Origin: an uncultured Candidatus Saccharibacteria bacterium
Lineage (GTDB): Bacteria; Patescibacteriota; Minisyncoccia; JACPXH01
Length of the DNA stretch: 64,000 nucleotides
Reading direction: 5' to 3'
NCBI GenBank assembly: GCA_964409225.1
Contig: CAYPCM010000001.1
Span: 32,173-96,172, forward strand
Shown piece after piece: positions 527 through 63,530 of the stretch. Position 1 is the first letter of the stretch. Every line of letters begins with the position of its first letter. The notes below the pieces were generated by a model that was given only the letters and a program-made list of their open reading frames with translations, had not been told where the DNA came from and made no database searches. A program made the position numbers and the translations under genes.

Positions 527-643
527 TTGACCCCATTAGAAGTCCATAGTTTTACAATCTATTGCGGAGGTCTAAGGGCGAAGCCGCCTAACGGCTTGCG
601 TTCACTTTTTGGAAGACACGATTTAGACCTCTAACGGGGTTGA
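527..643. repeat. Palindromic MITE-like element, family B (CCCCGTTAGAA ends), copy 1
   Basis: Terminal inverted repeats TTGACCCCATTAGAAGTC / GACCTCTAACGGGGTTGA; ~85% identical over ~117 bp to 18208..18326; internal GAAGCCGCCTAACGGCTT hairpin; sits in secY–adk spacer. Confidence 0.7.
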
Positions 644-652
644 GAAAGGTGG

Positions 653-1339
653 TTGAGGATGGTATGCTTGAGGCACATGGCTGCTATTGACATTGTTCTT
701 CTCGGCCGTTCCGGCTGCGGCAAGGGCACACAGGCAGAGCGGTTGGCGAAGCATTTTGGGCTGGCGGTGGTGAGTCCGGGTGAGCGGTTTCGTAAACTTG
801 CCGCCACCTCTTCGTGGACTGGCGAGAAAATTAAAGCCATCATTGATTCAGGGGGGCTGCCGCCAGATTGGCTGGCGGCGCATTTGTGGCTGGCAGAACT
901 TATAGAAAAAATAGTGCCTGGTCGCGGGCTTATTTTTGACGGTACGCCCCGTCGCTTGCCCGAGGCCAAGCTCATTGATGAAATCCTGGCTTGGTACGAG
1001 CGGACCAATGTGCACGTATTTCTGCTCGACATCAGTCGGGAGGAGGCCCGTCGGCGTCTTACCGGACGGCGCATCTGCGTTGGCTGCAGCACCATCGCTC
1101 ACGCCATCTATGACGACACTGACGCGGCCAAGTGCCTTGAGTGCGGCGGCACGCTGGTAAGTCGCCCCGACGATACGGCGGAGGCGATCGGCAAGCGCCT
1201 CGATTGGTTTGATGCAGACGTTATGCCGATTATCCACTATTACGAAACCCAGGGGCGGCTTACGCGGATTAACGGCGAAAGGCCCATCGAAGTTGTCGCC
1301 GCTGAACTCCTTCAGGCCGTAGAGGCGCACCTGGCGTAA
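653..1339 (+). CDS. adk: Adenylate kinase (likely true start ~677, MAAIDIVLLG)
   Basis: P-loop GRSGCGKGTQ, LID domain with Cys4 zinc knuckle (CVGCS...CLECGG); conserved position downstream of secY. Confidence 0.85.
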   Translation: MRMVCLRHMAAIDIVLLGRSGCGKGTQAERLAKHFGLAVVSPGERFRKLAATSSWTGEKIKAIIDSGGLPPDWLAAHLWLAELIEKIVPGRGLIFDGTPRRLPEAKLIDEILAWYERTNVHVFLLDISREEARRRLTGRRICVGCSTIAHAIYDDTDAAKCLECGGTLVSRPDDTAEAIGKRLDWFDADVMPIIHYYETQGRLTRINGERPIEVVAAELLQAVEAHLA

Positions 1340-5186: not shown

Positions 5187-5939
5187 ATGCCCAAACTTAT
5201 TGTCGCCAACTGGAAGATGAATCCTGCCACCTACGCGGAGGCAGAGGAGTTACTTGCATCTGTGCTCGAGGGGACGAGGGGGGCACGGGGGGTAGAGGTG
5301 ATCATCTGTCCGCCGTTCGTGTGGCTTACGGACTTTTCGCACAAAATGAAATCAATTTCTTTCGGCGCGCAAGATGTGTTCTGGGAAACGCAGGGCGCGT
5401 ACACGGGTGAAATTTCTCCCGCGATGCTTGTTTCGTCGCGCGTCACACACGTGATCGTCGGTCACTCGGAGCGCCGGCGCCATCTGGGCGAAACCGATGA
5501 GATGGTCAACCGCAAGGTGCGCGCAGCACTCACCGCCGGACTCGAGGTGATTTTGTGCGTGGGCGAACATTCAAGAGATGAGGACGATGTTGTGCGCGTG
5601 CTCGACGGGCAAGTTTCGGCAGCGCTTGCAGGTGTGCCCAAGCAGTATCTCGAGCGGCTTACCGTGGCGTATGAGCCGGTCTGGGCGATTGGGACCGGCA
5701 CGGCCGATACACCCAATGATGCGCTTTCCGCCGCAATCTCTATCCGGAAAACCATTCGGAATCTATACGACAAAAAAACCGCCTCCGGTGTGCGGGTGCT
5801 TTACGGCGGAAGCGTGAACACGGCGAATGCGGCTCCGTTCTTGCGGGAGGAGGGGATTGCCGGCGCGCTTGTGGGAGGGGCGTCGCTCCGGGCCGAAGAA
5901 TTTATTGAGATCGTCCGGCAGGCCGCTGCCGTTGGCTAG
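5187..5939 (+). CDS. tpiA: Triosephosphate isomerase
   Basis: ANWKMN…, VGHSERR, AYEPVWAIGTG, GGSV motifs. Confidence 0.9.
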   Translation: MPKLIVANWKMNPATYAEAEELLASVLEGTRGARGVEVIICPPFVWLTDFSHKMKSISFGAQDVFWETQGAYTGEISPAMLVSSRVTHVIVGHSERRRHLGETDEMVNRKVRAALTAGLEVILCVGEHSRDEDDVVRVLDGQVSAALAGVPKQYLERLTVAYEPVWAIGTGTADTPNDALSAAISIRKTIRNLYDKKTASGVRVLYGGSVNTANAAPFLREEGIAGALVGGASLRAEEFIEIVRQAAAVG

Positions 5940-5972
5940 GCGTGTGATCGTCAGAACTAGCAAGCTAAATCC

Positions 5973-7220
5973 TCAGTCGTTCTGGATGTAAATGGAGAGG
6001 CCCCGTAGCCAGATCATGACCGCGCGGGAGAAGGGGAGGATGGACGAGAGGTACACGAGTTCGATCGCCTGTTTGATGCACCAGCCGGCAAAGCCAGTAA
6101 GTCGAAATATCAGGAGGTCGGCGATCGCCCATTTGCCACCAATAGGGATGACATAAGGGTAGCGGCGAATGCGATAGGGAGTAGCCGATTTGCCCATAAG
6201 GCGGCGGACGATGTTGCGCGCTGCGTGCTTGCCCTGTTCAATCGCCACGCGGGCCGTCGCCGGCACGGGTTGTTTTGTTTCGGGGTCGATGAGGTGAGTG
6301 TTGTCGCCGATGGCCCAAATGCCGGAAGCGCATAGCAATGTTTCTGACACCGCCATATGGCCTGATCTGTCATGCTTCAGGGCCGCTGCTTGCGCTAGGC
6401 GGTTTGGCTGAATCCCGCCAGTCCAGATGGTGACTAATGTTTCGATTCTTTCTGTTATACCCGGCGCTGTTTCGACCATAAGTCCAGCTTGGTCTGCCGA
6501 AGTTACGCAAGTGCCGGTTTTGATGGTTACACCAATCGTTTCGAGGCGACGCGTCGCCGCTCGGATGACGTCTGGTCTGAAGCCCTTGAGAATCGTGGGG
6601 CAGGCCTCGATAAGAACGACCCCTGGTTTTTCCCAGCCAAGGGCGCGGCCGAAGCCCATCATCTCAGCCGCAACTTCTACGCCAGCTGACCCGCCGCCGC
6701 ACACCGCGATGGGCAGGCGTGTTTGAGCGGCGAGCCGTTCGGCAATGCGGTTACGCAGCCGAATTATTTCGCGGAACGACCTAAAGGAGAATACGTGTTC
6801 TTCAAGCCCGGCTATGCCAAAAAAATTCGGCTCTGCGCCTAAAGCGAGTATAAGGTGAGCAAATGGCAGGAGCGGTTCAGACGTCGTTTGAACCAAGCGC
6901 TCGGCGGAGTCAATTGCCGTCACTTCGGTCTGCAGGAACCGCACGCCGGTTCCAGCCAGAATTTCTTCGTAGGATACTACCGAAACCTTTTGCAGCTCGT
7001 ATGCAGAAGCGTCTGCTTGAGTAGTGCTTGCGATTTCATAGAGCGCCGGTTGGTAGAGTTGTCCGGCCTGGCGATCGATAAGGACGGGAATAAATTGACG
7101 CGCGAGGTCGTGTTGTTTTAGGAGTTTGGCAAGTTCCCGGGCGCAGGCGATGCCGCCAAACCCGCCGCCGAGAATGACTATGTTTTGCGGCAATCGAGTG
7201 TTTTTATCCATACCCCGCAT
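5973..7220 (-). CDS. ndh: Type II NADH dehydrogenase / FAD-dependent pyridine nucleotide-disulfide oxidoreductase
   Basis: N-terminal Rossmann GxGxxG (VILGGGFGGIACA), second NAD(P) site (AVCGGGSAGVE), C-terminal membrane anchor. Confidence 0.75.
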   Translation of the reverse strand: MRGMDKNTRLPQNIVILGGGFGGIACARELAKLLKQHDLARQFIPVLIDRQAGQLYQPALYEIASTTQADASAYELQKVSVVSYEEILAGTGVRFLQTEVTAIDSAERLVQTTSEPLLPFAHLILALGAEPNFFGIAGLEEHVFSFRSFREIIRLRNRIAERLAAQTRLPIAVCGGGSAGVEVAAEMMGFGRALGWEKPGVVLIEACPTILKGFRPDVIRAATRRLETIGVTIKTGTCVTSADQAGLMVETAPGITERIETLVTIWTGGIQPNRLAQAAALKHDRSGHMAVSETLLCASGIWAIGDNTHLIDPETKQPVPATARVAIEQGKHAARNIVRRLMGKSATPYRIRRYPYVIPIGGKWAIADLLIFRLTGFAGWCIKQAIELVYLSSILPFSRAVMIWLRGLSIYIQND

Positions 7221-7408: not shown

Positions 7409-8584
7409 ATGTGGCGTACGCTTGATGACTTAGACGTGACCGGCAAACGCGTGCTGTGGCGCGTTGATTTTAACGTGTCGATCGGCGAAAGCGGCCGTAT
7501 TGATCAGCAAAATGATTGGCGAATGCGCGCGGCACTCCCAACGCTTGAAACGCTTCTCAAGCACAAGGCGCGAGTAATCGCCGTCAGCCATTTGGGCGAG
7601 CCGGCCGAGCGCGACGCCAGGTTATCTTTGGCGCCGGTGGCAAGCCATTTATCAAAGCTTGCCGGTCAGCGGATTAGGTTTGTGTCGAGTGTCGTGGGGC
7701 CGGAAGCAGTGGCAGCGGCAGATAAGCTTGAGCCCGGCGAAATTATGATGCTTGAGAATGTTCGCTTCGAGCCCGGGGAAATAGTGAACGATCCAAAGCT
7801 TGCCGATCAACTGGCCGCGGGTGCGGAAATGTTTGTATGCGATGCTTTTGGTGTCGCGCATCGGCCGCACGCTTCCCTCGTCGGTCTGCCAGCGCGTCTG
7901 CCGTCGGCGGCCGGAGAGCTGATGTGTCGTGAGGTGAAAACACTCGCTGATTTTATGACGAGTCCGCCCCGGCCGGCAGTGGTCATTCTCGGAGGCGCAA
8001 AGGTCGGCACTAAACTGGCGGTGCTGGCGAGGATTATGGCTGTGGCGGACTATGTGCTTTTGGGAGGCGTGCTGGCCAACACGGTCCTTGCGGCCAAGAA
8101 CTTCAATGTGGGCGCTTCACCCGTTGATAAGACGGTTATTCCTGCCTTGCAGAAGCTGGATCTGGCTTCGTCTAAAATTCTTCTGCCGCAGGATGCGACC
8201 GTGGGGTTAGCGACTGATTCGCAGCAAGGGGTGAGACAAGTGGACGTGGCGCGTGTGAGAGCCGATGAAGCGATGTATGACTTGGGCGAGCGCACAATTG
8301 CCCTGTACCAAGAGGCAATCACCGGCGCGGCCAGCGTTGTTTGGAACGGACCCATGGGACTCGCAGAAGTTGATCCGTTTGCTACAGGTACCGTCGCTTT
8401 GGCAGAGGCAATCGCCGGCAGACGCATTCCCGCGATTGTGGGTGGCGGCGACACCGTGGCGTTTTTGATGCGTCGGGGTTTGGCGTCCTCGTTCTCCCAT
8501 ATTTCAACCGGCGGCGGGGCCATGCTCGCGTTTCTGGCAGGTGAGCGCTTGCCGGCTCTGGAGGCGTTGGGGTACTATAGTTAA
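7409..8584 (+). CDS. pgk: Phosphoglycerate kinase (start set at MWRTLDDL, 7409)
   Basis: RVDFNV, MLENVRFEPGE, VILGGAKV, GGGDT motifs throughout. Confidence 0.9.
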   Translation: MWRTLDDLDVTGKRVLWRVDFNVSIGESGRIDQQNDWRMRAALPTLETLLKHKARVIAVSHLGEPAERDARLSLAPVASHLSKLAGQRIRFVSSVVGPEAVAAADKLEPGEIMMLENVRFEPGEIVNDPKLADQLAAGAEMFVCDAFGVAHRPHASLVGLPARLPSAAGELMCREVKTLADFMTSPPRPAVVILGGAKVGTKLAVLARIMAVADYVLLGGVLANTVLAAKNFNVGASPVDKTVIPALQKLDLASSKILLPQDATVGLATDSQQGVRQVDVARVRADEAMYDLGERTIALYQEAITGAASVVWNGPMGLAEVDPFATGTVALAEAIAGRRIPAIVGGGDTVAFLMRRGLASSFSHISTGGGAMLAFLAGERLPALEALGYYS

Positions 8585-8743
8585 ATCAAATATCAAATAG
8601 CTAATCGTAAAAATTATCAATGATCAATTATCAATCAAACTCCAAACTCCAATTTTCAGTTGACGACGTAGCGTATTTGAAAACTGAGAAATTGAAAATT
8701 GAAAATTGAGAATTTAAGTTGTCATTTTTCATTTTCAGATATT

Positions 8744-9348: not shown

Positions 9349-9468
9349 CAGACCGTCCGAAAACTCCAAAATTTAGTCTTCGAGCTTGTCGAGAAGCCTA
9401 AATTTTGCCTTAAAACCGACGTATTGTTCTCGACAAGCTCGAACAATAACGAGTTTTCGGACGGTCTG
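9349..9468. repeat. Nested-palindrome MITE-like element, family A, copy 1
   Basis: 16–18-bp terminal inverted repeats CAGACCGTCCGAAAACTC…GAGTTTTCGGACGGTCTG; internal inverted CTTCGAGCTTGTCGAGAAG / CTTCTCGACAAGCTCGAAC; near-identical copies at 20199..20318 and 39749..39898. Confidence 0.75.
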
Positions 9469-9481
9469 TATTGCGTTTCGT

Positions 9482-14006: not shown

Positions 14007-14111
14007 TCAACCCCGTTAGAAAACAGAACTTTGTCTCATCGAAAGTAAGAACTCTTTAGTAGACTGACAAGTCGAAGAAAGCATGACCAGCTAGTTTTCT
14101 AACGGGGTCAA
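14007..14111. repeat. Palindromic element related to family B (CCCCGTTAGAAAAC ends)
   Basis: CAACCCCGTTAGAAAAC …105 bp… GTTTTCTAACGGGGTCAA inverted termini; lies in lipase/membrane-protein divergent spacer. Confidence 0.55.
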
Positions 14112-15960: not shown

Positions 15961-15999
15961 CCGCCCCGACGCCTTCGCGTCGGGGCGGTTTCCTTTTTC
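15961..15999 (+). terminator. Intrinsic terminator (copy 1 of duplicated hairpin)
   Basis: CCGCCCCGACG-ccttc-GCGTCGGGGCGG followed by TTTCCTTTTTC. Confidence 0.6.
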
Positions 16000-16077: not shown

Positions 16078-16332
16078 ATGCGCAAGCCCAAATCAACCCC
16101 AAAAATTCGTTTTCGGCAGTCGCTCTTCTGGGATGTGGATCCTAAAACCATTCATCCCAAACGCCACGCTCGCTACATCATCGAGCGCATTCTTGATTTT
16201 GGCAATGACCGCGAGGTGCGGTGGCTCTGGCAGACGTACCCTCGAACGCTCATCGCCGAGGTCGTCCAACACTCGCGGGTGCTTCATAATCAGTCGCGCG
16301 CTTTATGGACGCTGCTCAGTCGCGGGGCGTAA
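16078..16332 (+). CDS. Small partner protein of AbiEii-like nucleotidyltransferase (putative antitoxin)
   Basis: 84 aa, 28-nt overlap with downstream NTase gene; position equivalent to AbiEi. Confidence 0.4.
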   Translation: MRKPKSTPKIRFRQSLFWDVDPKTIHPKRHARYIIERILDFGNDREVRWLWQTYPRTLIAEVVQHSRVLHNQSRALWTLLSRGA

Positions 16333-16985
16333 CCTGGCATGTTGAGGTGTTGCCGCGGACGGTACGCCAGGCCCTTCGGCGTCTCGCCGGAGCGAGATGG
16401 CTTAAGCGTTCGAAATGGTATCTTGCGGGCGGCACAGCCCTCGCCCTTCAAGCGGGGCACCGCGCTTCGGTTGACCTTGATTTTTTTACGCCTCAAAAAA
16501 CGTTTTCCGCAGACCAGCTGCTCGCTCATTTTCCAAAGGAATCGTGGACAGCTGATGTGGTGCGCGAAGGCACCGTCTATGGTCGGTTGCTCGGAACACG
16601 GGTGAGTTTCATTGCTTACCCCTATTTCGTTGCCCGAGCGCCGTATCGATGGTACGGCTCAGTGCGGGTACTCGCGCCGGCTGATATCGCCGTGATGAAA
16701 ATTGTAGCTATTAGCCAACGCGGCCGAAAAAGAGATTTTGTTGACCTCTATTGGTACTGCCGCCACCGTGAACCGCTCGGCGACATTGTGGAGCGACTGC
16801 GAGACCAATATCCCACCGTGGCCCACAACTATCACCATATTATCAAAAGTCTTGCGTATTTTGCCGACGCTGAAGCCGAGCCCATGCCGAAACTTTTTTT
16901 TGACGTAACGTGGAAAGACATAAAAAAGTTTTTTGAGCGCGAAGTGTCGGCCGTCGCGCGCCGGAAGCTTCTGGGCTTGCGCTGA
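16305..16985 (+). CDS. Nucleotidyltransferase, AbiEii/AbiGii-like toxin family
   Basis: Pol-beta-type NTase motif YLAGGTALALQAGHRASVDLDFF (GG…S.DxD) and C-terminal helical domain. Confidence 0.6.
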   Translation: MDAAQSRGVTWHVEVLPRTVRQALRRLAGARWLKRSKWYLAGGTALALQAGHRASVDLDFFTPQKTFSADQLLAHFPKESWTADVVREGTVYGRLLGTRVSFIAYPYFVARAPYRWYGSVRVLAPADIAVMKIVAISQRGRKRDFVDLYWYCRHREPLGDIVERLRDQYPTVAHNYHHIIKSLAYFADAEAEPMPKLFFDVTWKDIKKFFEREVSAVARRKLLGLR

Positions 16986-17008: not shown

Positions 17009-17045
17009 CCGCCCCGACGCCTTCGCGTCGGGGCGGTTTCTCTTA
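17009..17045 (+). terminator. Intrinsic terminator (copy 2, identical stem to 15961..15988)
   Basis: CCGCCCCGACGCCTTCGCGTCGGGGCGGTTTC identical over 32 nt to copy 1. Confidence 0.55.
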
Positions 17046-18096: not shown

Positions 18097-18134
18097 CCCG
18101 CCCGACGGGAGTCCGTCGGGCGGGTTTCTTTTCT
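18097..18134 (+). terminator. Intrinsic terminator
   Basis: CCCGCCCGACGG-gagt-CCGTCGGGCGGG + TTTCTTTTCT. Confidence 0.6.
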
Positions 18135-18207
18135 CGGGCACCGGGAGACGGCACATAAAACCAATACTATGCCGTATCCGTTCGTGTGATGATTACGGCC
18201 CCGCAGC

Positions 18208-18326
18208 TTGACCCCGTTAGAAGTCCATAGTTCGGCAATCTATTGTGGGAGCCTAAAGGCGAAGCCGCCTAACGGCTTTCATTTATCTTCTTTGGGGGAC
18301 ACGATTTAGACTTCTAACGGGGTTGA
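18208..18326. repeat. Palindromic MITE-like element, family B, copy 2
   Basis: TTGACCCCGTTAGAAGTC…GACTTCTAACGGGGTTGA perfect 18-bp TIRs; homologous to 527..643. Confidence 0.75.
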
Positions 18327-18384
18327 CGCCGGCGGCGTGCGCGGCAATACTTACATTGATTAACCTTAATCAATAAGACCTTTT

Positions 18385-18678
18385 ATGGTTCAGCGACTCC
18401 CTCTCACCAAAGCCCGGATCAACCTCGGCGCCATCGTCAAGCGAGTCCACCTCAACAAAGAATATTTCATTCTCGAGAAAGACGGCATCCCCGTGGCTGG
18501 CCTCATGGACATTGACGAGTTTGAGGACTACTTGGAACTCCGTGATCCCAAGGTCCGTGAGCACATCCGCAAGAGCAACGCGGAGTACCTCGCGGGCAAG
18601 AGTCGGCCGTACCGAGCCCTCCTCGCGGAACTCAAACGCGAGGAGCAACGGGGGACAAAGCGGCGTCAGAAGGCATGA
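18385..18678 (+). CDS. Phd/YefM family antitoxin
   Basis: Small; PLTKARINLGAIVKRV…ILEKDGIPVAGLMDIDEFED typical Phd/YefM; 4-nt overlap with toxin. Confidence 0.75.
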   Translation: MVQRLPLTKARINLGAIVKRVHLNKEYFILEKDGIPVAGLMDIDEFEDYLELRDPKVREHIRKSNAEYLAGKSRPYRALLAELKREEQRGTKRRQKA

Positions 18679-18965
18679 CGGCGCTTTTTCTCGTTCGCTC
18701 CTCGGCGCGATTCGAGCGGCTCTTCCGTAAACTTTTTCGAAGGCACCCCGAGCTCCGTGCTCTCCGCGATCGCGTCGGCGACATCCTCGAGACCGACCCC
18801 ACCAACCGCACCCGGACCCACCACATCAAGAAGCTCGGAGCCGTCCCACTGGGTGAAGGCCAGTGGCGGTTCTTTCTCGGCCGTTTCCGATTCCGCTATG
18901 ACATCTACGGTCGTGAGGTCGTGCTTCAATACTGCGGTCTCCGGCGCGAAGATACGTACCGGTAG
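18675..18965 (+). CDS. RelE/ParE family toxin
   Basis: C-terminal RFRYDIYGREVVLQYCGLRRE RelE/ParE signature. Confidence 0.7.
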   Translation: MTALFLVRSSARFERLFRKLFRRHPELRALRDRVGDILETDPTNRTRTHHIKKLGAVPLGEGQWRFFLGRFRFRYDIYGREVVLQYCGLRREDTYR

Positions 18966-20198: not shown

Positions 20199-20318
20199 CA
20201 GACCGTCCGAAAATGCCAAAATTTAGTCTTCGAGCTTGTCGAGAAGCCTAAATTTTGGCATAAATACGTCAGTGGTTCTCGACTTCGCTCGAACCATATC
20301 GAGTTTTCGGATGGTCTG
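20199..20318. repeat. Nested-palindrome MITE-like element, family A, copy 2
   Basis: CAGACCGTCCGAAAATGCC…GAGTTTTCGGATGGTCTG; begins 1 nt after GNAT stop and supplies last ~16 codons + stop of the convergent gene. Confidence 0.75.
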
Positions 20319-21360
20319 TGATGCCCAAGAGGAATATCGGGCACCACTCGGCACCTTCATAGTCGTTCGCGCGCTTCGTCTCAACCACGGTGAAGTATTT
20401 GGAAAACAGCGTAACAAGCTCGCGTTCTCCAGGCGGGGACCACGTGCGGAAAGCGGCCGGGTCCTCAAGAATGGCTTGGCGGATGCGCGCCAGGAGCGGA
20501 TGCGTCGTCCCTGTTGCGTCTGCCCAGGCCGCGAGTTTTTGGCTGGCGAGCGTTCGATTGAGCTGGCGAAGGGTTCGGTCGGCAAAACGCCACAAAAGCC
20601 GCGAGGCGATGAAGTATACTTTCTGCCAGTCCGTCAGCGGACGGCCGCGGAACCGCGCAACGATCGCGCCAATATCGTCGCCGAGAACGGTCTCGTCGAG
20701 TACTTGGCAGCGCGTGATGAAGACGCCTCCTGGCCGCAGGAGTGTCGCGACTTTCCCTAGGAGGCGCGGCTCCGCTTCAGGCGTAAGTTGCTGGAGCGTA
20801 AGGTCTCCGAGGATAGCCCCAAAGAATTCTTGAGGGAAAGGGAGCTCAAGCCAGTTGGCCCGCACCCAAATTTCTTCGCGCGGGTCAACATGTTTCGTGA
20901 ACCGAAGCATGGCGAGCGGCATCCGGTACGAAAAGTCAGCGAGGTGCACCCGGCCTGCGCCGGCGGTGGCGGCGAGATCTCGGAGTTCAGGGGTGGAACC
21001 CAAGATGAGCACCGGGCCGACGCCCCTGGTTTTCGTGAGGAATTCACGGTATACGGAAATATCTCCCGAGCTTGGACGGAACGGGCTTGTGACGTCCTCC
21101 CAGCGGTCAGCGAGGCGCTCCCAGTAGCCGCATTGATCTTGTTCGTGGGTCCGTTTTGTCGCCGTGATCAAGCGTTGATGAATAAGGCGATGAAGTACTG
21201 CAAGCTCATCCCGCTTGAGCAGCTGGCTAAGATATAACAGGAGTTTCTGGAGAGCGCGCGGCACGGAGTTGTGGATATGAGTTGTTGTGTGCAGGGAGGT
21301 CTTGGAGTATGATGTTGCTATATTAAGTGTACTGGACTGGCTACATATGCTCCAGACCAT
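20269..21360 (-). CDS. Class I SAM-methyltransferase-fold protein (degenerate motif I; N-terminus uncertain)
   Basis: VLILGSTPEL…LADFS…LELPFPQEFFGAILGD…LLRPGGVFI resemble MTase motifs I/II/post-II/III; ORF extends to 21504 through a low-complexity stretch. Confidence 0.4.
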   Translation of the reverse strand: MVWSICSQSSTLNIATSYSKTSLHTTTHIHNSVPRALQKLLLYLSQLLKRDELAVLHRLIHQRLITATKRTHEQDQCGYWERLADRWEDVTSPFRPSSGDISVYREFLTKTRGVGPVLILGSTPELRDLAATAGAGRVHLADFSYRMPLAMLRFTKHVDPREEIWVRANWLELPFPQEFFGAILGDLTLQQLTPEAEPRLLGKVATLLRPGGVFITRCQVLDETVLGDDIGAIVARFRGRPLTDWQKVYFIASRLLWRFADRTLRQLNRTLASQKLAAWADATGTTHPLLARIRQAILEDPAAFRTWSPPGERELVTLFSKYFTVVETKRANDYEGAEWCPIFLLGITDHPKTRYGSSEVENH

Positions 21361-28200: not shown

Positions 28201-28606
28201 TTCCGGCACTCCCGCGTGCGCGGTCTTTTCTACGCCGAGTCATCCGTACCCGCAGCCGGATTTCACGCATAATCCTTCGACGCTTACGCCCGGCACGCCC
28301 ATCGCCTTTAGCGCCGATGCCTCAACCGCTGCTCCGGGCCGTCAGATAGTGCGCTGGTTCTGGAAATTCCTTGACGGGGTTGCCACCGCCCCTGACGACG
28401 CTGATTCAGATCCTGACGAAGTGCTCCATGTGAGGCCGCCTTCAACTCGTTCACGTCCCAGCGCTACTTACAGCACCGCCGGTGCGAAAACAGTTACCCT
28501 CACGGTTCAAGACGACGGCGGCCCGGAGTTCACTTGCAGCCGGTTGAAGGTGCTTTTCGGCGGCTCCGGCGCAAATCTGGACTGGCGGGAGGTGAAGCCG
28601 CGGTAA
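25262..28606 (+). CDS. Giant secreted/surface protein with fibronectin-III/Ig-like repeats
   Basis: N-terminal TM/signal, repeated …VTAGLPTGASATF… modules, Pro/Gly linkers (PGGPGGPPG), FN3-like WSPV…Y.VR segments; 1114 aa. Confidence 0.6.
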   Translation: MKWSWSKLRLPPRPWLVGFGFWVGVLVILAFMAAAPPSFPKPQPSIATIPHCGETNEWLALVDKYLGTQLAEAQSGGPCVKISAQCQGSDDAYPGFKLEWFGVAHLPSWKYQLVIPGFEFMRPDGGIQAAGAGFRRWDIDPSVPTLSAGSGLITQLVRTETATGLAVDDDTYYRAAVYSQNTTAVQCAGTDEASNNRAPDCLRFRTRDLPPDPRYGVLVTSATCPWQAEETTEVSIPCGQTTLYTSPLSSNRGGQTEWEISGVTPVSASPILTSNTSQPPRVYSGTFDDGSTVSLSMRDNQVVASRTSPPGGVCDPPPPTITCELRINGLADASWQSSSSPAPTLTWSTADFRDGDTIEAKEYTASNVPTGKEASSNQAAGSTGLGSLPRVRPGESPVTRKYVATPYDTGAPNGSVRSGSESCEANLTITAESPPVCPGGLTCVGGCTPLPSYNSAELTWSPVANARVYRVRTSRSDGTILRTDDVTPPTTRITITGLAPSTSYLFSVQTIDQLDNSSALCPGAGLTATTSPGPGGPGGPPGTPALTLTAGPTCTQMTLSWPDVANETSYEVYRGPTSSGPWTLITSPALAANTTSYTDSGRTQLTSYSYYVKALNAVGPATSNIATATTDACGGPGGADFSVSVAPASRTVSPGQSTTYTVTVTSTSLPNTPITLSVTAGLPTGASATFAPNPVTTPSTDGSVTSTMTVSTIASTPLGTSSLTISGTGASLTRTAPTTLVVDTSGSNFTLDATPASVTVQPGETANYRVAIIPTNLPNTDITLAVTAGLPAGATASFGSNPVRTPASGDVQTDMFIATAPGTSAGTYPLTVRGSTTGASPIVRTDTVNLVVNTSGGPNTPPDPPGGPGGGPTPPSRTLMCESPARLTFEFVYTDPDTPPDNADRFTFQVARDAGFANLIVSRSYSSPVSSGTTLNQLVTMQTGADPGGVRDVLYYGQSYYWRVKAWDSRGAESRWSCGDSGTPACAVFSTPSHPYPQPDFTHNPSTLTPGTPIAFSADASTAAPGRQIVRWFWKFLDGVATAPDDADSDPDEVLHVRPPSTRSRPSATYSTAGAKTVTLTVQDDGGPEFTCSRLKVLFGGSGANLDWREVKPR

Positions 28607-28692
28607 TAAAAAATCCAAAGCACAAAGCACAAAATCCAAGGCACAAATTCAAATGACAACGAAGTCATCTCAAAATTCTCAAAAAAGGCGTT

Positions 28693-28775
28693 ATTCTTCG
28701 AGCGAAGTCGAGAAGAGACCTTTATATAACCTTTATATAAGCAGTTATTGTTCTCGACAAGCTCGAACAATAATG
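28693..28775. repeat. Degenerate internal fragment of family A element (no outer TIRs)
   Basis: TTCTTCGAGCGAAGTCGAGAAG … TTATTGTTCTCGACAAGCTCGAACAATAA matches the inner inverted repeats of family A. Confidence 0.4.
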
Positions 28776-28848
28776 CGTGAGCTAGTTTCGAGATGACTTA
28801 AACATGTTTCGAGATTTGAGGTTTGGTTATTATTTTGGATTTTGAGCT

Positions 28849-29334
28849 TTGGATTTTGGATTTCGTTTTATGGATCAGAACAAAAAACATCTCTTCATTC
28901 TCCTTGGCCTCGGCGTCGCGGTCGTAATTTTTATCGTGATCGCATTCTACCAAAAGCCCACGCCCGGGCCGCAGCCCGGGCCGACCCCGCCGCCAGACAA
29001 CGGCGCTCCGGCAAACGATCTGCCGAAGGACTTGCGCGTGGTGTCGGGCAAGATTACGAACATTGCCGGCAGCAGCATGACGATCGAATGGACCGTGCCG
29101 CAGAAGCTTGATTTTAGCGAAATAAAGGTTTTCCCGAAGCATATTACGTGGACGAACAGCACGACCTTCAGCCGGGTACGGGCCGACGCGCCCGGCGCGA
29201 AACCCGAGGTGATCAAATCCTCGGATCTCAAAATCGGCCAGACCGTGGTGGTCAGCACTCTTGAAACGGTCCAGGATCATTTTGAGCTAACCGCGCTTAG
29301 TATTCAGGTGCAGGTGCCGCCAACACCAAAATGA
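28849..29334 (+). CDS. Small membrane-anchored secreted protein (hypothetical)
   Basis: N-terminal TM, Pro-rich linker; overlaps next gene by 4 nt. Confidence 0.4.
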   Translation: MDFGFRFMDQNKKHLFILLGLGVAVVIFIVIAFYQKPTPGPQPGPTPPPDNGAPANDLPKDLRVVSGKITNIAGSSMTIEWTVPQKLDFSEIKVFPKHITWTNSTTFSRVRADAPGAKPEVIKSSDLKIGQTVVVSTLETVQDHFELTALSIQVQVPPTPK

Positions 29335-31885: not shown

Positions 31886-32043
31886 GCACATTCTCGGTTC
31901 AGTATTCGGAAGGTCTCTGCGCTAGCAGGCCTTTTCGACGTGTGCGAATGTCCACTTGACTGCCGCCGGTGGATGGCTATACTGGAGCTATAACAGTACT
32001 GTATCACCCCCGAAAAGGGAGGGCGAATATTGGGATACAATCT

Positions 32044-32361
32044 ATGCCCAAAGAGGTGAGCGCCCTCAAGATGCGCCACAATCTGGGAGAGATCTTGAAT
32101 CAGGTCGCCAACCAGCGGCTCCGCTTTGTGGTGAAGCGCGCCGGCATCCCCGCGGCAATCCTCATGAGCATCCAGGACTACGAGGACTTGGAGGACCTGG
32201 TCGAAACAGCCGTCGAGGAGGCGGGTCCCAAGTTCCAGCGGAGTTTGCTCGAGGGTCGTAAGGCCATTGACGCGGGCCGCTTCACGACCGCGGCGGATCT
32301 ACGGCGGGACTTGCGGCGGAAAGAGGCGAAGGTGCGCCGGACGGGGAAAAGGAGCCGCTAA
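32044..32361 (+). CDS. Phd/YefM family antitoxin (start at MPKEV, 32044)
   Basis: MPKEVSALKMRHNLGEILNQV…RFVVKRAGIPAAILMSIQDYEDLEDLVE Phd/YefM signature. Confidence 0.7.
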   Translation: MPKEVSALKMRHNLGEILNQVANQRLRFVVKRAGIPAAILMSIQDYEDLEDLVETAVEEAGPKFQRSLLEGRKAIDAGRFTTAADLRRDLRRKEAKVRRTGKRSR

Positions 32362-32706: not shown

Positions 32707-33168
32707 ATGAAGCGTACGGACGCGCCCCAACTAATCATTCATGCCGATGGCGGCTCACGGGGCAACCCCGGGCCGGCGGCGTTGGGCGTGGTCATTGAGC
32801 CGGCGGCTGGTTCGGATCTTAAACCGGGTCGGAAAGAATACGCCGAATACTTAGGCGAGCTTACGAACAACGAAGCCGAATACCGCGCGCTTATTTTTGC
32901 CCTGAAAAAAGCCAAACAGCTTTATGGCAAAGACAAAATTGCCAAGGCGGCGGTGGAGGTGCGAATGGATTCTGAGCTGGTGGTCAAGCACCTCAACGCC
33001 GAATATAAAATTGAGGACGAAAAGCTCCAGCCGTTATTTCTTGAAGCGTGGAATCTGAGGCAGGATTTCGGTTCGGTGCGCCTTATCGCCGTCCCGCGTC
33101 AGAACAACCGCCGGGCGGATGCGTTGGTGAACCGCGTGCTCGACCAGCAGGGGAGTCGGCTGCTCTAG
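32707..33168 (+). CDS. rnhA: Ribonuclease HI
   Basis: IHADGGSRGNPGPAA…TNNEAEYRALI…DSELVV RNase H catalytic motifs. Confidence 0.85.
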   Translation: MKRTDAPQLIIHADGGSRGNPGPAALGVVIEPAAGSDLKPGRKEYAEYLGELTNNEAEYRALIFALKKAKQLYGKDKIAKAAVEVRMDSELVVKHLNAEYKIEDEKLQPLFLEAWNLRQDFGSVRLIAVPRQNNRRADALVNRVLDQQGSRLL

Positions 33169-33229: not shown

Positions 33230-33472
33230 ATGAGCACCAAAGTTCAAAAATGGGGCAACAGTCTTGCCGTGCGGCTGCCGAAAGAAGTCGCCGTTAAGTT
33301 TGGTTTGAAAGAGGGGGCGGTAGTCCAAATCGTGCCGTCGGTGAAAAACATTATCTTGAAACCCGTTTCCAGGAAAAGGTTAACATTGCGGGATCTCGTG
33401 GGGGAAATTACCCCCAAGAATAGGCACGACGAGGTTTCGTGGGGTAAACCCCGCGGTAGAGAAGTATGGTAG
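33230..33472 (+). CDS. mazE: MazE/AbrB-type antitoxin
   Basis: KVQKWGNSLAVRLPKEV… SpoVT/AbrB swapped-hairpin motif; overlaps mazF. Confidence 0.7.
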   Translation: MSTKVQKWGNSLAVRLPKEVAVKFGLKEGAVVQIVPSVKNIILKPVSRKRLTLRDLVGEITPKNRHDEVSWGKPRGREVW

Positions 33473-33804
33473 CTAGAAATTATATCCCCGGCCGAGGCGA
33501 TGTAGTGTGGGCGGACTTTGATCCGGTTAGGGGCCACGAAGAGCAAGGCCGCCGACCCGCTTTCGCCGTTTCTTCGCTCGAATACAATTCGCGTTCCGGC
33601 CTCGTTCTGTTGTGTCCGATAACTTCCAAACCCAAAGGATATCCGTTTGAGGTGGCGATAAATCTGGCGAAGATTAAGGGAGTAATTCTGGCCGATCAGG
33701 TTCGCAGCGTTGACCGGAGTAAACGCAGAATCAAGTTCATAGCCAAGGCGGACTATTCGGTGCTTGAGAAAGTGCGGGAAAGGTTGGCGTTACTGATAAA
33801 TTAG
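33466..33804 (+). CDS. mazF: MazF/PemK family mRNA interferase toxin
   Basis: PGRGDVVWADFDPVRGHEQ.GRRPA…VLLCPITSK PemK/MazF signature. Confidence 0.75.
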   Translation: MVARNYIPGRGDVVWADFDPVRGHEEQGRRPAFAVSSLEYNSRSGLVLLCPITSKPKGYPFEVAINLAKIKGVILADQVRSVDRSKRRIKFIAKADYSVLEKVRERLALLIN

Positions 33805-34054: not shown

Positions 34055-34963
34055 CAAGTGGATTGGATAGTCGCGCTCATTGAAATTTCAGTGGGTGAGG
34101 AAAGTCCGAACACCCCAGCCGATGCGCGGCATCGGAAATTCGAAGCTCGAATTTCGAATTTCGAAACAAATTCAAAATTCCAAATACAAATGTTCCAAAC
34201 GTTTGGAATTTGGGATATTGGGTATTGTGATTTGTTTCGAATTTCGAATTTCGGATTTCGTGCTTCCGCTGCTGCGCAGCGGCTGGAAGTAGGCAGTCGC
34301 TAACGGCGACCGGGAGCAGCTTGTTTCATCGGCGCGGTTCACGAATTGTTGCACGTAGCGCATTCGTGACTATGTGCGACATTGACTGCGTTTAAGGATA
34401 CGAGCGAAGCCCAGGGAAAGTGCCACAGAGACATATACCGCCTGCCGATGCTTCGCATCGGGAAACTCGAAATTCGAATTTCGAAACAAATTCAAAATTC
34501 CAAATACCAATGTTCCAAACGTTTGGAATTTGGGATATTGGGTATTGTGATTTGTTTCGGATTTCGTGCTTCGGATTTGGGATTTCCGCTGCGAAGCAGC
34601 GGTTGGTAAGGGTGAAAAGAGTGGGTTCGCCTTCGTTCCGCTTTCGCGGAACTTCGGCGGAATAAACCCGCCTTCATGCGCCAGCGCGCCGGAAGGTGTG
34701 GTGAACGTAAGAGCCCACAGTTCTCGCAGGTGACTGTGAGAAGAGGAAAACCCTGCCTGGTGCAAGGTCAGCGTTTCCTCGGCAGATTTCGTCTGCCGCG
34801 GGATTCGAAAAGTTAGACCGCTAGAGGCCGCGAGCAATCGCGGTCCCAGATAGATGGCTATCAGGGCGTGCGGCCTGTAAACCCCTCCCCAGTTTGCAAA
34901 ACAAACTGGGGAGGGGGAGGAAGGGCCGCACTCCTTACAGAATTCGGCTTATAGATCCACTTG
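34055..34963 (+). ncRNA. rnpB: RNase P RNA (bacterial type A core) carrying two ~165-nt inserted palindromic modules
   Basis: P1 pairing CAAGTGGAT/ATCCACTTG; P4 strands GAGGAAAGTCCGAAC and ACAGAATTCGGCTTATAG; conserved GGGAAAGTGCCACAGAGA, GGTAAGGGTGAAAAG, AACGTAAGAGCCCACAG, GGTGCAAGGTCAG, CCAGATAGATGGCTATCAGGG blocks matching E. coli M1 RNA; ~909 nt vs ~380 expected. Confidence 0.75.
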
Positions 34964-39283: not shown

Positions 39284-39748
39284 GCGCAGAAATAGCTCAC
39301 GCGCGGACCAGACGTGCTATAATCAGTAGCAATGAGGAATATATTTCCTCAACTCTTCGATGTCCGTCCCAGAGGGCGAGATGGGGAGGTGGACTTCGAA
39401 AAAATCAAACGAGTTGAGGCGGTGTTGGATTTGACGAGTAAGGAAAACGATCTGGCAGAGCCGGTGCGTTTAAATCAGGCGCGGGCGTTGCCGGCGGACG
39501 CCGCGTCCGCCGAACTCACCGCCGAAAAGCTCCTGGCAGAGCTTACGGCGATTTACGAGCGCGACGACACCTTAGAGGCCGAGCTGGCGCGTGAGCGGTC
39601 TTACCCCGTTAGAACACCACCAACTTCTGTTGGTGGTGACTATACAATTGTTGATGAGACAGCGCCACCATGCTCTGAAAGCCACGCGCCACCGATTAAA
39701 GTCGCGTTAGTACCAGAGTCGGCAGAACCTCTTGCAGTCAATAACTTT

Positions 39749-39898: not shown

Positions 39899-40021
39899 TT
39901 TATCACGCGGGAAACCGAGGTGCCGAGCATTCCAGAACCGACGTGGCTGCCTGCGCCGGTTACTTTGCCGGCTGTGCCAATGCCCAGAGCCACGGCGCGG
40001 CTCAGCAGTGAGGCGCAGCCG

Positions 40022-52527: not shown

Positions 52528-52567
52528 AATCCAAAATCCAAAATCCAACCCCCAAAAATTTCGGCGT

Positions 52568-56737: not shown

Positions 56738-56740
56738 ATT

Positions 56741-62696: not shown

Positions 62697-63530
62697 ATGT
62701 TCATGGCGCAGTTTTCGATTTTGACGCTCAACCTCCGGCACGGTCAGGGGCCACGGGTCGCTGCTGGCGAGGCGCCGTGGTCCTTTGGCCAGCGTCGCGC
62801 AACCATGCGCGCCCATGCGGCGGCGATCGGTTCGTTCATCGGGCAGATGACGCCGCAGCCGGATATCGTGTGTCTGCAGGAGACGAATGCTGCCGCGTTT
62901 TTTTGGCCGGATATTCTTAGTATTATTCGCGAAAGGTCTGGCTATCAATACGTAGCGGCTTCTCCCCAAAAAGTTTTGCCGCATAATAATGGAATTTTAA
63001 GTCGGTTTCCATTCAATCGCGTGGTCTCGCGCCAGTTTCGCAAACTGCCGATGGTTATGGCGGGGTGGCGCGCGATATGCTATTCAATCAACCGTGGGTT
63101 TGTCGCAGCAGAAATCGAGGGGGTCGGGACTGTCGTTTCGACGCACCTCGATCCATATGTTCCCGCGCTGCGGTTTGGCCAAGCGCGCGAGCTGCGGCAA
63201 GCGCTGCCGGCGCGCAATATCATCATCACCGGAGATTTCAATCCGTTGACGTGGGATGAAGAGTCGCTCAAGGTGGCGGGGGAAGGGCTTACGACGGCGC
63301 CGCCGATTGATGCAGAACACTTCGCGTCGTTCGCAACTTGGCCAGCCCCGTTAGAAACCCAGTTTCTAACGGGGCCAGCTGGCGTAATGTCCACCGAAGT
63401 AGTACCAGAATGCCGGCTCGATTACGTGCTCGTTTCGCCGGGCTTGCGCTTCGTCTCTGCCGAGCGCGTGTTCACCGGCCACACGGATCATTACGGTGTC
63501 GTAGTTACCGTTGAAAGGCGCTCGCCATGA
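62697..63530 (+). CDS. Endonuclease/exonuclease/phosphatase (EEP) family protein
   Basis: N-terminal …ILTLNL…, CLQETN, GDFN, C-terminal TDHYGVVV (SDHxPV-like). Confidence 0.6.
   Translation: MFMAQFSILTLNLRHGQGPRVAAGEAPWSFGQRRATMRAHAAAIGSFIGQMTPQPDIVCLQETNAAAFFWPDILSIIRERSGYQYVAASPQKVLPHNNGILSRFPFNRVVSRQFRKLPMVMAGWRAICYSINRGFVAAEIEGVGTVVSTHLDPYVPALRFGQARELRQALPARNIIITGDFNPLTWDEESLKVAGEGLTTAPPIDAEHFASFATWPAPLETQFLTGPAGVMSTEVVPECRLDYVLVSPGLRFVSAERVFTGHTDHYGVVVTVERRSP
63345..63375. repeat. 13-bp-stem CCCCGTTAGAAA hairpin (family B-type end motif) embedded in EEP coding sequence
   Basis: GCCCCGTTAGAAA-cccag-TTTCTAACGGGGC perfect inverted repeat inside ORF. Confidence 0.5.

What the first reader, a model, noticed from the sequence alone, without database searches (positions are those of the whole stretch)
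527..643. Family B: palindromic elements terminating in CCCCGTTAGAA (five sites), including two ~118-bp full copies
Full copies lie at 527..643 and 18208..18326 (18-bp TIRs TTGACCCCGTTAGAAGTC, internal GAAGCCGCCTAACGGCTT hairpin). A related 105-bp element lies at 14007..14111. A solo end plus adjacent hairpin lies at 39602..39639, and a 13-bp-stem hairpin lies at 63345..63375. The shared 11-mer in inverted orientation at every site suggests one recognition sequence, such as a transposase or recombinase binding site, or a REP-like motif.
Basis: seen in the sequence. Interest (0 to 1): 0.6.

Follow-up and report, generated by a model that had tools for sequence, protein, structure and literature searches.

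The report
Promoter-targeting miniature transposon family in CPR bacteria
The repeats are copies of a small gene-less mobile DNA element, shared by Candidate Phyla Radiation bacteria, Planctomycetota and Omnitrophota, that inserts at the sequence TTGA (often the first bases of a promoter's -35 box), duplicates those four bases and so leaves the promoter intact.

Summary
CCCCGTTAGAA (at most 1 mismatch) occurs 10 times in the window against 1.1 expected, at the five stated sites. The window is a Candidatus Parcubacteria MAG contig (GCA_016186535.1).

The repeats are non-autonomous palindromic mobile elements (MITE-like):
- 13-bp terminal inverted repeats, CCCCGTTAGAA-R-Y.
- A core that varies freely in length (3-119 nt) and sequence.
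- A 4-bp target-site duplication. The outer TTGA is this duplication, not part of the repeat.

Insertion is shown by empty sites in relatives. One lies in the secY-adk spacer. The other lies inside an Exo_endo_phos gene, where 29 nt + 4 nt adds 11 in-frame codons.

Across 80 elements from about 70 MAGs (39 CPR, 15 Planctomycetota, 4 Omnitrophota loci):
- The unconstrained right flank reads TTGACA.
- A TANNNT -10 box follows at 16-18 nt in 40 of 80, against about 5 expected.

So the element sits in -35 hexamers and regenerates them.

No transposase was found. The ends (5'-CCC), the 13-bp repeat and the specific 4-bp duplication resemble the IS1380/piggyBac group, but this is a lead, not a test. 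A hairpin-recognising Y1 (RAYT/TIRYT) mobiliser is the main rival. I found no published description. It is a new MITE family with an unusual target.

The parts
527..530 (+). Left copy of the 4-bp target-site duplication TTGA (site 1)
   Evidence: Direct repeat of 640-643. The relative L125 has a single TTGA at the homologous empty site.
531..639 (+). Element copy 1 (109 nt), a degenerate member of the ~110-nt subfamily. Its ends are CCCCATTAGAAGTC and GACCTCTAACGGGG. It carries an internal GAAGCCGCCTAACGGCTT hairpin.
   Evidence: Absent from the secY-adk spacer of L125 (Adk 76% identical).
640..668 (+). Right copy of the duplication (TTGA, 640-643), which forms the start of a sigma70-like promoter TTGAGA-17-TATGCT (with TG before the -10) in front of adk (ATG at 677).
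   Evidence: Promoter scan. The empty site in L125 keeps TTGAAT-17-TATGCT.
14007..14111 (-). Element copy 3 with its duplication: TCAA 14007-14010, a 97-nt element 14011-14107 (ends CCCCGTTAGAAAAC), TCAA 14108-14111. On the minus strand the flanks read TTGA, and the downstream flank reads TTGACA, pointing at the hydrolase gene that starts at 13927.
   Evidence: The same subfamily sits at two other loci in relative L123 (1587-1684 and 15276-15374) that are empty in the window (5939-5973) and in L125.
18208..18211 (+). Left copy of the duplication TTGA (site 2)
18212..18322 (+). Element copy 2 (111 nt). It has perfect 14-bp ends (CCCCGTTAGAAGTC) and an internal terminator-like hairpin at 18261-18279.
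   Evidence: (-52.9 kcal/mol, z = -5.9)
18323..18351 (+). Right copy of the duplication (TTGA), which forms the start of the promoter-like site TTGACG-17-AATACT upstream of a Phd/YefM antitoxin gene (18385).
39604..39616 (+). Solo left end CCCCGTTAGAACA (flank CTTA). No right end is present. It lies inside the annotated 871-aa DUF4012 ORF and probably is a decayed or truncated copy.
   Evidence: Also present in a second assembly (L127).
63342..63378 (+). Minimal 29-nt element (63346-63374: 13-bp stem, 3-nt loop) flanked by the duplication CCAG (63342-63345 and 63375-63378). The 33-nt in-frame insertion adds APLETQFLTGP to an Exo_endo_phos protein.
   Evidence: Four homologues lack the 11 residues. 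The empty site in L129 is TGGCCAGCGGGT.

Best explanation
Family B is a family of non-autonomous, palindromic transposable elements (MITE-like).

Anatomy. Each copy has two 13-bp terminal inverted repeats, CCCCGTTAGAA-R-Y. Between them lies a core with no conserved length or sequence, from 3 to about 120 nt.

Insertion. The element enters at a 4-bp staggered cut, so it is flanked by a 4-bp direct repeat. The preferred target is TTGA, followed by C and often A. That is the start of the sigma70 -35 hexamer TTGACA.

Consequence. The duplicated TTGA on the right side rejoins the original C(A)-N17-TATAAT, so the host promoter core survives. This probably explains why the element persists in very compact genomes. 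Copies also tolerate operon spacers and, when element plus duplication is a multiple of 3, coding sequence.

Shown versus inferred.
- Shown: the anatomy, insertion with a 4-bp duplication, the target preference, the coincidence with promoters, and the spread across phyla.
- Inferred: mobilisation in trans by a transposase that makes 4-nt staggered target cuts. The 5'-CCC ends, the 13-bp repeat and the specific 4-bp duplication point to an IS1380/piggyBac-like DDE enzyme, but none was found.
For: 1. Enrichment and anatomy in the window.

2. Related elements elsewhere. Of these, 67 hold paired elements: 39 CPR/Patescibacteria, 15 Planctomycetota, 4 Omnitrophota. The remaining loci mostly lack a paired element; those inspected are coding-sequence matches or solitary ends (e.g. 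L063, L085).

3. Flanks over 80 elements. The unconstrained right flank is T70 T74 G65 A68 C57 A37, i.e. TTGACA.

4. The duplication is real.
- 64 of 80 flank pairs are identical.
- Among 21 elements whose left flank is not TTGA, 8 have the identical right flank (TTCA, CTCG, TTTA, CTGA, CTGG). Permutation expects 0.44-1.66, and 0 of 20000 permutations reach 8.

5. Empty sites.
- The secY-adk spacer of L125 has one TTGA in TTGAAT-17-TATGCT. The window has TTGA[element]TTGAGA-17-TATGCT.
- The Exo_endo_phos homologues lack exactly 11 residues, and the L129 DNA has one CCAG.
- The two L123 copies lie at loci that are empty in the window and in L125.

6. Coincidence with promoters.
- TANNNT at a 16-18 nt spacer occurs in 40 of 80 elements (26 at exactly 17), against a mean of 5.2 at control offsets. 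In the TTGAC subset it is 35 of 43.
- The independent promoter scan and 18323-18351.
- The nearest feature on the right side is a gene start 43 times and a gene end 20 times. On the left side the counts are 31 and 34.

7. Repeat length. It is sharply 13 bp: 42 of 80 are exactly 13, and the minimal element is 29 nt = 13+3+13.

8. Typical transposon behaviour. There is a nested insertion (L026), and multi-copy subfamilies occur within genomes. One subfamily occurs in both orientations relative to the flanks.

9. Literature. piggyBac pairs with IS1380-like elements (PMC5718144). piggyBac repeats start with CCC, are often 13 bp, and give a TTAA duplication with variants that include TCAA (PMC10813416).
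Against: - No autonomous copy or transposase was found. None is in the roughly 49 window ORFs scanned. No protein family recurs near the elements in 66 loci. No long element with matching ends and duplication exists in the fetched loci.
- IS1380-family members that I inspected have ends CCYGAATWATTCAT and AT-rich, mostly 5-bp duplications. Beyond the CC(C) start, the ends are not similar.
- 29-nt elements are too short for a classical double-stranded paired-end complex. They may instead be deletion derivatives.
- Positions 12 and 13 co-vary between the two ends (62/69 and 61/69 complementary). Three variants coexist in this one genome. That looks like a pairing (hairpin) constraint.
- Within most subfamilies the core has a constant orientation relative to TTGA. 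A symmetric DDE element should insert both ways.
- The locus sample is the first 120 rows of a capped scan, and it required an exact 14-mer at one end.
Confidence: 0.7

Rival explanations
1. REP/REPIN-like hairpin element mobilised as single-stranded DNA by a Y1 HUH transposase (RAYT/TIRYT, IS200/IS605 relatives). The 13-bp stem would be the recognised structure. TTGA would be the cleavage or target tetranucleotide present 5' of the insertion point and at the element's 3' end, which would mimic a duplication.
For: - A conserved stem with a freely variable loop, down to 29-nt hairpins.
- Compensatory co-variation at stem positions 12-13.
- Mostly constant core orientation relative to TTGA within subfamilies.
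- In-frame intragenic copies, as reported for REPs.
- L033 (Planctomycetales MAG) has a Y1_Tnp gene (Pfam E = 3.6e-16) flanked by TTCTAACGGGGTCAG and CTGACCCCATTTAG.
- That Y1 family (more than 7400 relatives) is flanked by GGGGTCAGA...TCTGACCCC inverted repeats. These match the published TIRYT motif GGGGWSAS (PMC3733652).
Against: - Y1 enzymes make no target duplication. Here non-consensus targets are duplicated (CCAG/CCAG with a documented empty site; TTCA, CTCG, TTTA), where a Y1 model predicts X...TTGA.
- One subfamily occurs in both orientations relative to the flanks.
- Only 1 of about 130 loci has a Y1 gene.
- The L033 hit is expected from scanning for a 14-mer that overlaps the generic TGACCCC(G/A)TT of TIRYT ends.
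- The closest Y1 relatives (86-87% identical; L215, L217) have different outer arms and no CCCCGTTAGAA elements in 20 kb. The repeats in L217 are GGGGTCAGAATTA...TAATTCTGACCCC palindromes of opposite polarity, with no evident duplication in the two copies examined.
- Stem mismatches show no strand bias towards wobble pairs.
Confidence: 0.15
2. A host regulatory module rather than a mobile element. The palindrome would be a protein operator, a transcription insulator (terminator plus promoter) or a structured RNA, conserved next to -35 boxes because it controls the downstream gene.
For: - Half of the copies abut a canonical -35/-10 pair.
- The ~110-nt subfamily carries a terminator-like hairpin in the same direction.
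- The elements form very stable RNA folds.
Against: - Half-site spacing varies from 7 to 123 nt and the core is not conserved, which rules out a fixed dimeric operator or one RNA fold.
- The 11-mer is conserved as sequence without co-variation.
- Insertions are polymorphic between relatives and carry duplications.
- Copies occur inside coding sequence and in the anti-promoter orientation inside a ribosomal operon (L123).
- Downstream genes are unrelated: adk, an antitoxin, a hydrolase, tRNA, 5S rRNA.
- No Rfam match.
Confidence: 0.04
3. A DNA uptake signal sequence, which in Neisseria often occurs as inverted pairs that act as terminators.
For: - An over-represented short motif frequently found as inverted pairs.
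- CPR bacteria are thought to depend on DNA uptake (own knowledge).
Against: - The density is low (10 motifs in 64 kb).
- The motif is almost never single.
- Pairs are flanked by duplications and are insertion-polymorphic.
- The same motif occurs in three phyla.
Confidence: 0.01

Closest known systems
Bacterial MITEs (e.g. Correia elements of Neisseria, RUP, ERIC, Nezha)
   Same: - Gene-less and 30-150 nt long.
- Terminal inverted repeats and a short target-site duplication at a preferred target.
- Many dispersed intergenic copies and strong hairpin potential.
- Can sit next to promoters, carry terminators or promoters, and be co-transcribed.
   Different: - The termini are identical across three phyla while the cores are unrelated.
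- Lengths run continuously down to 29 nt.
- The target is the -35 hexamer start TTGA(C), and the duplication rebuilds the -35.
- No parent insertion sequence is known.
piggyBac superfamily / IS1380 family DDE transposons
   Same: - 5'-CCC...GGG-3' ends.
- 13-bp terminal repeats (piggyBac).
- A sequence-specific 4-bp duplication. It is TTAA in piggyBac, with TCAA (= TTGA) among reported variants (PMC10813416).
- IS1380 has CC ends and a 4-5 bp duplication.
   Different: - No transposase gene is associated here.
- The repeat sequence differs beyond CC(C) from the IS1380 examples inspected.
- Those examples give AT-rich, mostly 5-bp, non-specific duplications.
REP/REPIN-RAYT and TIR-TIRYT systems (Y1 HUH transposases)
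   Same: - Short hairpins with a conserved stem and a flanking tetranucleotide.
- Singlets, doublets and clusters.
- In-frame intragenic copies.
- The junction (C/T)TGACCCC resembles the TIRYT motif GGGGWSAS.
   Different: - Real 4-bp target duplications.
- Flanking tetranucleotides are direct, not inverted.
- Opposite polarity (CCCC...GGGG) to the TIRYT-derived palindromes seen in L217.
- No GTAG/CGTC tag.
- No cognate single-copy Y1 gene was shown in the hosts.
Rickettsia palindromic elements (RPE)
   Same: Palindromic elements inserted in frame into protein-coding genes, adding a peptide segment. Site 5 adds 11 residues.
   Different: - RPEs are 100-150 nt and lineage-restricted.
- Here the intragenic copy is a 29-nt minimal form, and most copies are intergenic.

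Membership tests
[quoted passage not shown] | Terminal inverted repeats | tested here: met
   A 13-bp repeat, CCCCGTTAGAARY, in 80 elements; 42 are exactly 13 bp.
[quoted passage not shown] | Target-site duplication of fixed length | tested here: met
   4 bp. 64 of 80 flank pairs are identical. 8 of 21 non-consensus flanks are identical against 0.4-1.7 expected. Empty sites hold a single copy.
[quoted passage not shown] | Small and non-coding | tested here: met
   29-145 nt with no ORF.
[quoted passage not shown] | Multiple copies and insertion polymorphism | tested here: met
   Five sites in 64 kb. Subfamily copies sit at non-homologous loci in the window and in L123. Relatives have empty sites.
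[quoted passage not shown] | A parent autonomous element with the same ends | tested here: not met
   None in about 0.6 Mb of fetched loci nor in the window. Whole host genomes could not be scanned.
IS1380 / piggyBac-like element | Ends 5'-CC(C) | tested here: met
   CCCC ends. IS1380 examples have CCTG or CCCG. piggyBac has CCC.
IS1380 / piggyBac-like element | 4-5 bp target duplication | tested here: met
   4 bp.
IS1380 / piggyBac-like element | Encoded or cognate DDE/DDD transposase of that family | not testable with these tools
   Collection scans were exhausted, and no transposase lies in any element-bearing locus.
IS1380 / piggyBac-like element | Repeat sequence similar to family members | tested here: not met
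   CCYGAATWATTCAT and CCTAGATTCTACGT against CCCCGTTAGAARY.
REP/REPIN-RAYT or TIR-TIRYT | Hairpin with a conserved flanking tetranucleotide (GTAG/CGTC tag, or the GGGGWSAS motif) | tested here: inconclusive
   No GTAG or CGTC tag. The left junction YTGACCCC is the complement of GGGGTCAR, but the right junction is GGGGTTGA, which is direct rather than inverted.
REP/REPIN-RAYT or TIR-TIRYT | Cognate Y1 transposase gene flanked by the same repeats in the same genome | tested here: inconclusive
   One case (L033). The closest relatives L215 and L217 carry other repeats and no Family B elements. No Y1 gene lies in the other ~130 loci or in the window.
REP/REPIN-RAYT or TIR-TIRYT | Insertion without target duplication (single-strand peel-and-paste) | tested here: not met
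   Non-consensus targets are duplicated.
Integron attC site | 5'-RYYYAAC ... GTTRRRY-3' polarity, in cassette arrays beside an integrase | tested here: not met
   The polarity is the reverse (GTTAGAA...TTCTAAC). Copies are dispersed and not in arrays.
Known RNA family (Rfam) | Match to a covariance model | tested here: not met
   Only three tRNAs in the window at gathering threshold. Nothing at E <= 1 over 18150-18400.

The most novel reading that the evidence does not exclude
The elements may be moved by an as yet undescribed transposition system. It would recognise a 13-bp DNA hairpin stem, as REP/attC-type systems do, yet integrate with a 4-bp staggered cut, as DDE systems do. It would be directed to sigma70 -35 hexamers, and it would be shared horizontally among CPR bacteria, Planctomycetota and Omnitrophota. 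That would be a promoter-homing, promoter-preserving mobile element class. It would also be a marker of gene flow between ultra-small episymbionts and other groundwater or sediment bacteria.
Probability: 0.15. Interest if true: 0.8.

Novelty: new member of a known kind. Interest (0 to 1): 0.55.

Why it matters
- CPR/Patescibacteria genomes are about 1 Mb. Here a single element family contributes about one copy per 13 kb of this contig. The same 13-bp termini occur in dozens of CPR lineages and in Planctomycetota and Omnitrophota, which implies either an old or a horizontally spreading transposition system in uncultured bacteria.
- The target choice is neat. Insertion in the first four bases of the -35 hexamer, with duplication of those bases, leaves the promoter core intact. 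It also separates the promoter from upstream sequence by a strong hairpin, and in one subfamily by a terminator.
- This is a testable example of a safe-haven strategy. It is also a possible source of promoter insulation or rewiring.
- The elements are useful annotation landmarks. They mark -35 boxes, and they explain odd in-frame peptide insertions and over-extended ORF calls in MAGs.
- If the mobilising enzyme proves to be a prokaryotic piggyBac-like transposase with tetranucleotide specificity, it could be of practical interest.

Tried and rejected

2. Literature searches for the motif strings and for MITEs or palindromes in CPR found nothing relevant.

3. No similarity in plasmids or phages. 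No Rfam hit.

4. Viral contigs hold only five contigs with exact pairs. The 15-mer hits there lack a partner end and no transposase emerged from them.

5. Search for an autonomous element.
- The long-range pairs in the fetched loci lack matching flanking duplications; the four inspected (L003, L063, L085, L109) are coding matches or lack a transposase.
- Clustering 1038 neighbouring ORFs gave no recurrent family.

6. The Y1/TIRYT lead was followed through a homologue search, 80 metagenome loci and two long contigs. It was downgraded. Family B elements are absent near the closest Y1 genes, the polarity is opposite, and the TIRYT palindromes examined show no evident duplication.

7. attC-like reading: rejected on polarity and on the lack of arrays.

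8. IS1380 members from plasmids and viral contigs share the CC ends and a 4-5 bp duplication, but not the repeat sequence.

9. Strand-specific wobble bias in stem mismatches: none.

10. Strain-level polymorphism at site 2: only the source contig carries that antitoxin.

Full report
**1. The observation**

All five sites are present as described.
- CCCCGTTAGAA with at most one mismatch occurs 10 times on both strands, against 1.09 expected from dinucleotide-preserving shuffles. No shuffle reaches 10.
- The copies at 527-643 and 18208-18326 are 86-92% identical over their whole length, and the similarity ends at the element borders.
- The copy at 14007-14111 shares only the termini.
- All fold far better than shuffled sequence.

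- The outer TTGA is a direct repeat, not part of the inverted repeat.
- Site 1 has one mismatch in each 11-mer.
- Site 4 is a single end.
- Site 5 lies inside a gene.

**2. Source and context**

The window is the reverse complement of part of contig JACPLK010000001.1 of GCA_016186535.1, a Candidatus Parcubacteria MAG.
- Site 1 lies between secY and adk.
- Site 2 lies upstream of a Phd/YefM antitoxin gene.
- Site 3 lies upstream of an alpha/beta-hydrolase gene on the minus strand.
- Site 4 lies in the 5' part of an annotated DUF4012 ORF.
- Site 5 lies inside an Exo_endo_phos gene.

None of the roughly 49 ORFs scanned against Pfam is a transposase. Rfam finds only three tRNAs.

**3. The family outside the window**

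I scanned one genome per species for TGACCCCGTTAGAA.
- Just under half of the loci hold no paired element. Many are coding matches, for example acetate kinase MTPLEG, RpoD DPVRMY and TonB-dependent receptors. A few are solitary ends such as L063 and L085.
- The other 67 loci hold the same architecture, TTGA-CCCCGTTAGAA-(variable)-TTCTAACGGGG-TTGAC.
- Their hosts are 39 CPR/Patescibacteria MAGs of many classes, 15 Planctomycetota, 4 Omnitrophota, 6 unclassified and 3 others. None is a cultured isolate.
- Lengths run from 29 to 145 nt, and ten copies are exactly 29 nt.
- Cores are unrelated between lineages. Within a genome, or between close relatives, they form subfamilies.
- There is a nested insertion in L026.

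**4. Anatomy**

Pairing from the ends inward stops sharply at 13 bp: 42 of 80 elements have exactly 13.
- Positions 1-11 are essentially invariant.
- Position 12 is a purine and position 13 a pyrimidine. Both match between the two ends in about 90% of elements.
- At position 14 the match drops to 42%.

The minimal element is therefore 13 + 3 + 13 = 29 nt.

**5. The flanks are a 4-bp target-site duplication**

The left TGA was imposed by the search. The right flank was not, and it reads T70 T74 G65 A68 of 80.
- The two flanks are direct repeats. Flanks in inverted orientation (TTGA...TCAA) are essentially absent.
- Where the left flank is not TTGA, the right flank is the same non-consensus 4-mer in 8 of 21 cases (TTCA twice, CTCG, TTTA, CTGA three times, CTGG).
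- Permutation expects 0.44-1.66, and 0 of 20000 permutations reach 8.

Empty sites settle the matter.
- In relative L125 (Adk 76% identical) the secY-adk spacer reads ...GAAGAG TTGA ATGGGCTGGGTAAAGCTGG TATGCT.... The window reads ...GGG TTGA[109 nt]TTGA GAAAGGTGGTTGAGGATGG TATGCT....
- At site 5, four homologues lack exactly the 11 residues APLETQFLTGP.
- The DNA of L129 reads TGG CCAG CGGGT. The window reads TGG CCAG[29 nt]CCAG CTGGC.
- Relative L123 carries two copies of the site-3 subfamily at loci that are empty in the window and in L125.

**6. The target is the -35 hexamer**

The right flank continues C (57 of 80) and A (37 of 80), giving TTGACA.
- A TANNNT hexamer lies 16-18 nt further on in 40 of 80 elements, 26 of them at exactly 17. 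Control offsets average 5.2.
- In the TTGAC subset the count is 35 of 43.
- The left TTGACC is not followed by a -10 box (5 of 80).
- The independent promoter scan calls TTGAGA-17-TATGCT at 640-668 and TTGACG-17-AATACT at 18323-18351, each starting on the right duplication copy.
- The L125 empty site shows that the promoter existed before the insertion.
- Downstream of the right flank, the nearest feature is a same-strand gene start 43 times against 20 gene ends. Upstream there is no such bias, at 31 against 34.
- Solitary left ends sit in tRNA and 5S rRNA promoter regions (L063, L085).

So the element lands in TTGA(C) and duplicates TTGA, and the right copy rebuilds the -35. Whether the enzyme prefers TTGAC, or selection removes other insertions, cannot be separated here.

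**7. Who moves it**

No autonomous element was found.

*Staggered-cut (DDE-type) transposase, favoured.* The real duplications at non-consensus targets point this way. So does one subfamily that occurs in both orientations relative to the flanks. The combination of 5'-CCC ends, a 13-bp repeat and a sequence-specific 4-bp duplication is the signature of piggyBac, whose prokaryotic relatives are the IS1380 family (PMC5718144, PMC10813416). IS1380 members that I pulled from plasmids and viral contigs have CC(C/T)G ends and 4-5 bp duplications. Their repeat sequence is different and their targets are AT-rich. This is a lead, not a membership.

*Hairpin-recognising Y1 enzyme, the main rival.* Several features point the other way:
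- The conserved stem with a free loop.
- The 29-nt minimal copies.
- Co-variation at positions 12-13, with three variants in this one genome.
- The mostly constant core orientation within subfamilies.

I followed the one Y1_Tnp gene found next to the motif (L033).
- It belongs to a very large family flanked by GGGGTCAGA...TCTGACCCC repeats. These are the TIRYT/TIRtron class of Di Nocera et al. 2013, with motif GGGGWSAS.
- The L033 hit is what a 14-mer scan would pick out of thousands of TGACCCC(G/A)TT ends.
- Its closest relatives have other outer arms and no Family B elements within 20 kb.
- The repeats in L217 are palindromes of opposite polarity, with no evident duplication in the copies examined.
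- Y1 enzymes do not duplicate targets.
- Stem mismatches show no strand-specific wobble bias.

I put this rival at about 0.15.

**8. Other readings**

- *Operator or single RNA:* excluded by the variable spacing and core, the insertion polymorphism, the intragenic and anti-oriented copies, and the unrelated downstream genes.
- *attC:* the polarity is reversed and there are no arrays.
- *Uptake signal:* does not fit the paired, duplicated, low-density pattern.

**9. Consequences for the host (inferred)**

- The promoter core is kept, while everything upstream of -35 is displaced by 33-150 bp of hairpin-forming DNA.
- The ~110-nt subfamily carries a terminator-like hairpin pointing the same way as the promoter. 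It could therefore insulate the downstream gene from read-through.
- In operon spacers (secY-adk here; L2-S19 in L123) the element adds a -39 to -53 kcal/mol hairpin to the mRNA.
- In the Exo_endo_phos gene it adds an 11-residue loop.

**10. Novelty and score**

Text searches of the held library for the motif, and for MITEs or palindromic repeats in CPR, found nothing.
- The kind of element (MITE/REP-like) is well known. This is a new family.
- Its unusual traits are identical termini across three phyla, a length continuum down to 29 nt, and a -35-targeting, -35-regenerating insertion.
- Interest is 0.55.
- The most novel reading not excluded is a new hairpin-recognising, duplication-making, promoter-homing transposition system. 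I give it about 0.15 probability.

Noticed in passing
window 9349-9469, 20199-20319, 39749-39899; partial 28683-28793: A second MITE-like family with ends (A/T)CAGACCGTCCGAAAA...TTTTCGGACGGTCTG(T), 121-151 nt. The 20199 copy is flanked by TGAT on both sides. The 39749 copy lies 135 nt from the solo Family B end, inside the same annotated ORF.
   Followed up: partly
window 34115-34606, 36474-36519/36916-36961, 8589-8726, 28605-28864, 42014-42076, 44086-44111, 52526-52558; also L122 and L123 secY-adk spacers: AT-rich, short-period intergenic repeats (e.g. AAAATCAAAAAT, GAATTTGGGATATTGGG, ATTGAAAATTGA) fill many spacers of this 55-60% GC genome. In two relatives they occupy the very spacer that holds Family B site 1 here.
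   Followed up: no
window 54519-57877 (and direct repeats 57977-58071 / 61065-61160): A low-GC island (36-40% against 55-60%) sits immediately after a tRNA gene (54519-54589). It encodes an EcoRI-type adenine methylase, a GmrSD/HNH endonuclease and an unknown 378-aa protein. Imperfect direct repeats (84-89% identical) spanning about 95 nt lie at 57977-58071 and 61065-61160.
   Followed up: partly
window 15961-15992, 17009-17040, 18097-18128: Three copies of a GC-rich terminator hairpin (CCGCCCCGACG...CGTCGGGGCGGTTTC), two of them identical, follow consecutive genes just upstream of Family B site 2.
   Followed up: no
L128 (GCA_947085965.1) about 8130-8160, homologous to window 63346: A different GC-rich, partly palindromic 30-nt insertion (CCGGCCGCCTCGAGCGAGCCTCGCCGGGAG, peptide GRLERASPG) sits at the same codon of the Exo_endo_phos gene where the window has the 29-nt element. 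It could be a decayed copy or a second insertion at a hotspot.
   Followed up: partly
L135-L219 (Y1_Tnp loci), e.g. L217 4114, 6813, 8320, 19675: A very large family of 230-aa Y1 (TIRYT-like) genes is flanked by GGGGTCAGA...TCTGACCCC repeats, often with tandemly duplicated outer arms. One genome carries four 48-nt perfect palindromes made of the two fused ends within 20 kb.
   Followed up: partly
window 16305-16985, 18385-18965, 31969-32361, 33466-33804, 58209-58556: Many toxin-antitoxin or abortive-infection modules in 64 kb: AbiEii, two Phd/YefM antitoxins, a PemK/MazF toxin and a MazE antitoxin.
   Followed up: no
window 53599-54513 and 32707-33168: A free-standing LAGLIDADG-like ORF lies after ftsX and is syntenic with L128. 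There is also a small RNase H / RVT_3-like ORF.
   Followed up: no
window 39332-41947: The annotated 871-aa DUF4012 gene reads through both a Family B solo end and a Family A element in its first ~190 codons. The Pfam domain starts at residue 452. The true start may be downstream, so the ORF call may be over-extended.
   Followed up: no
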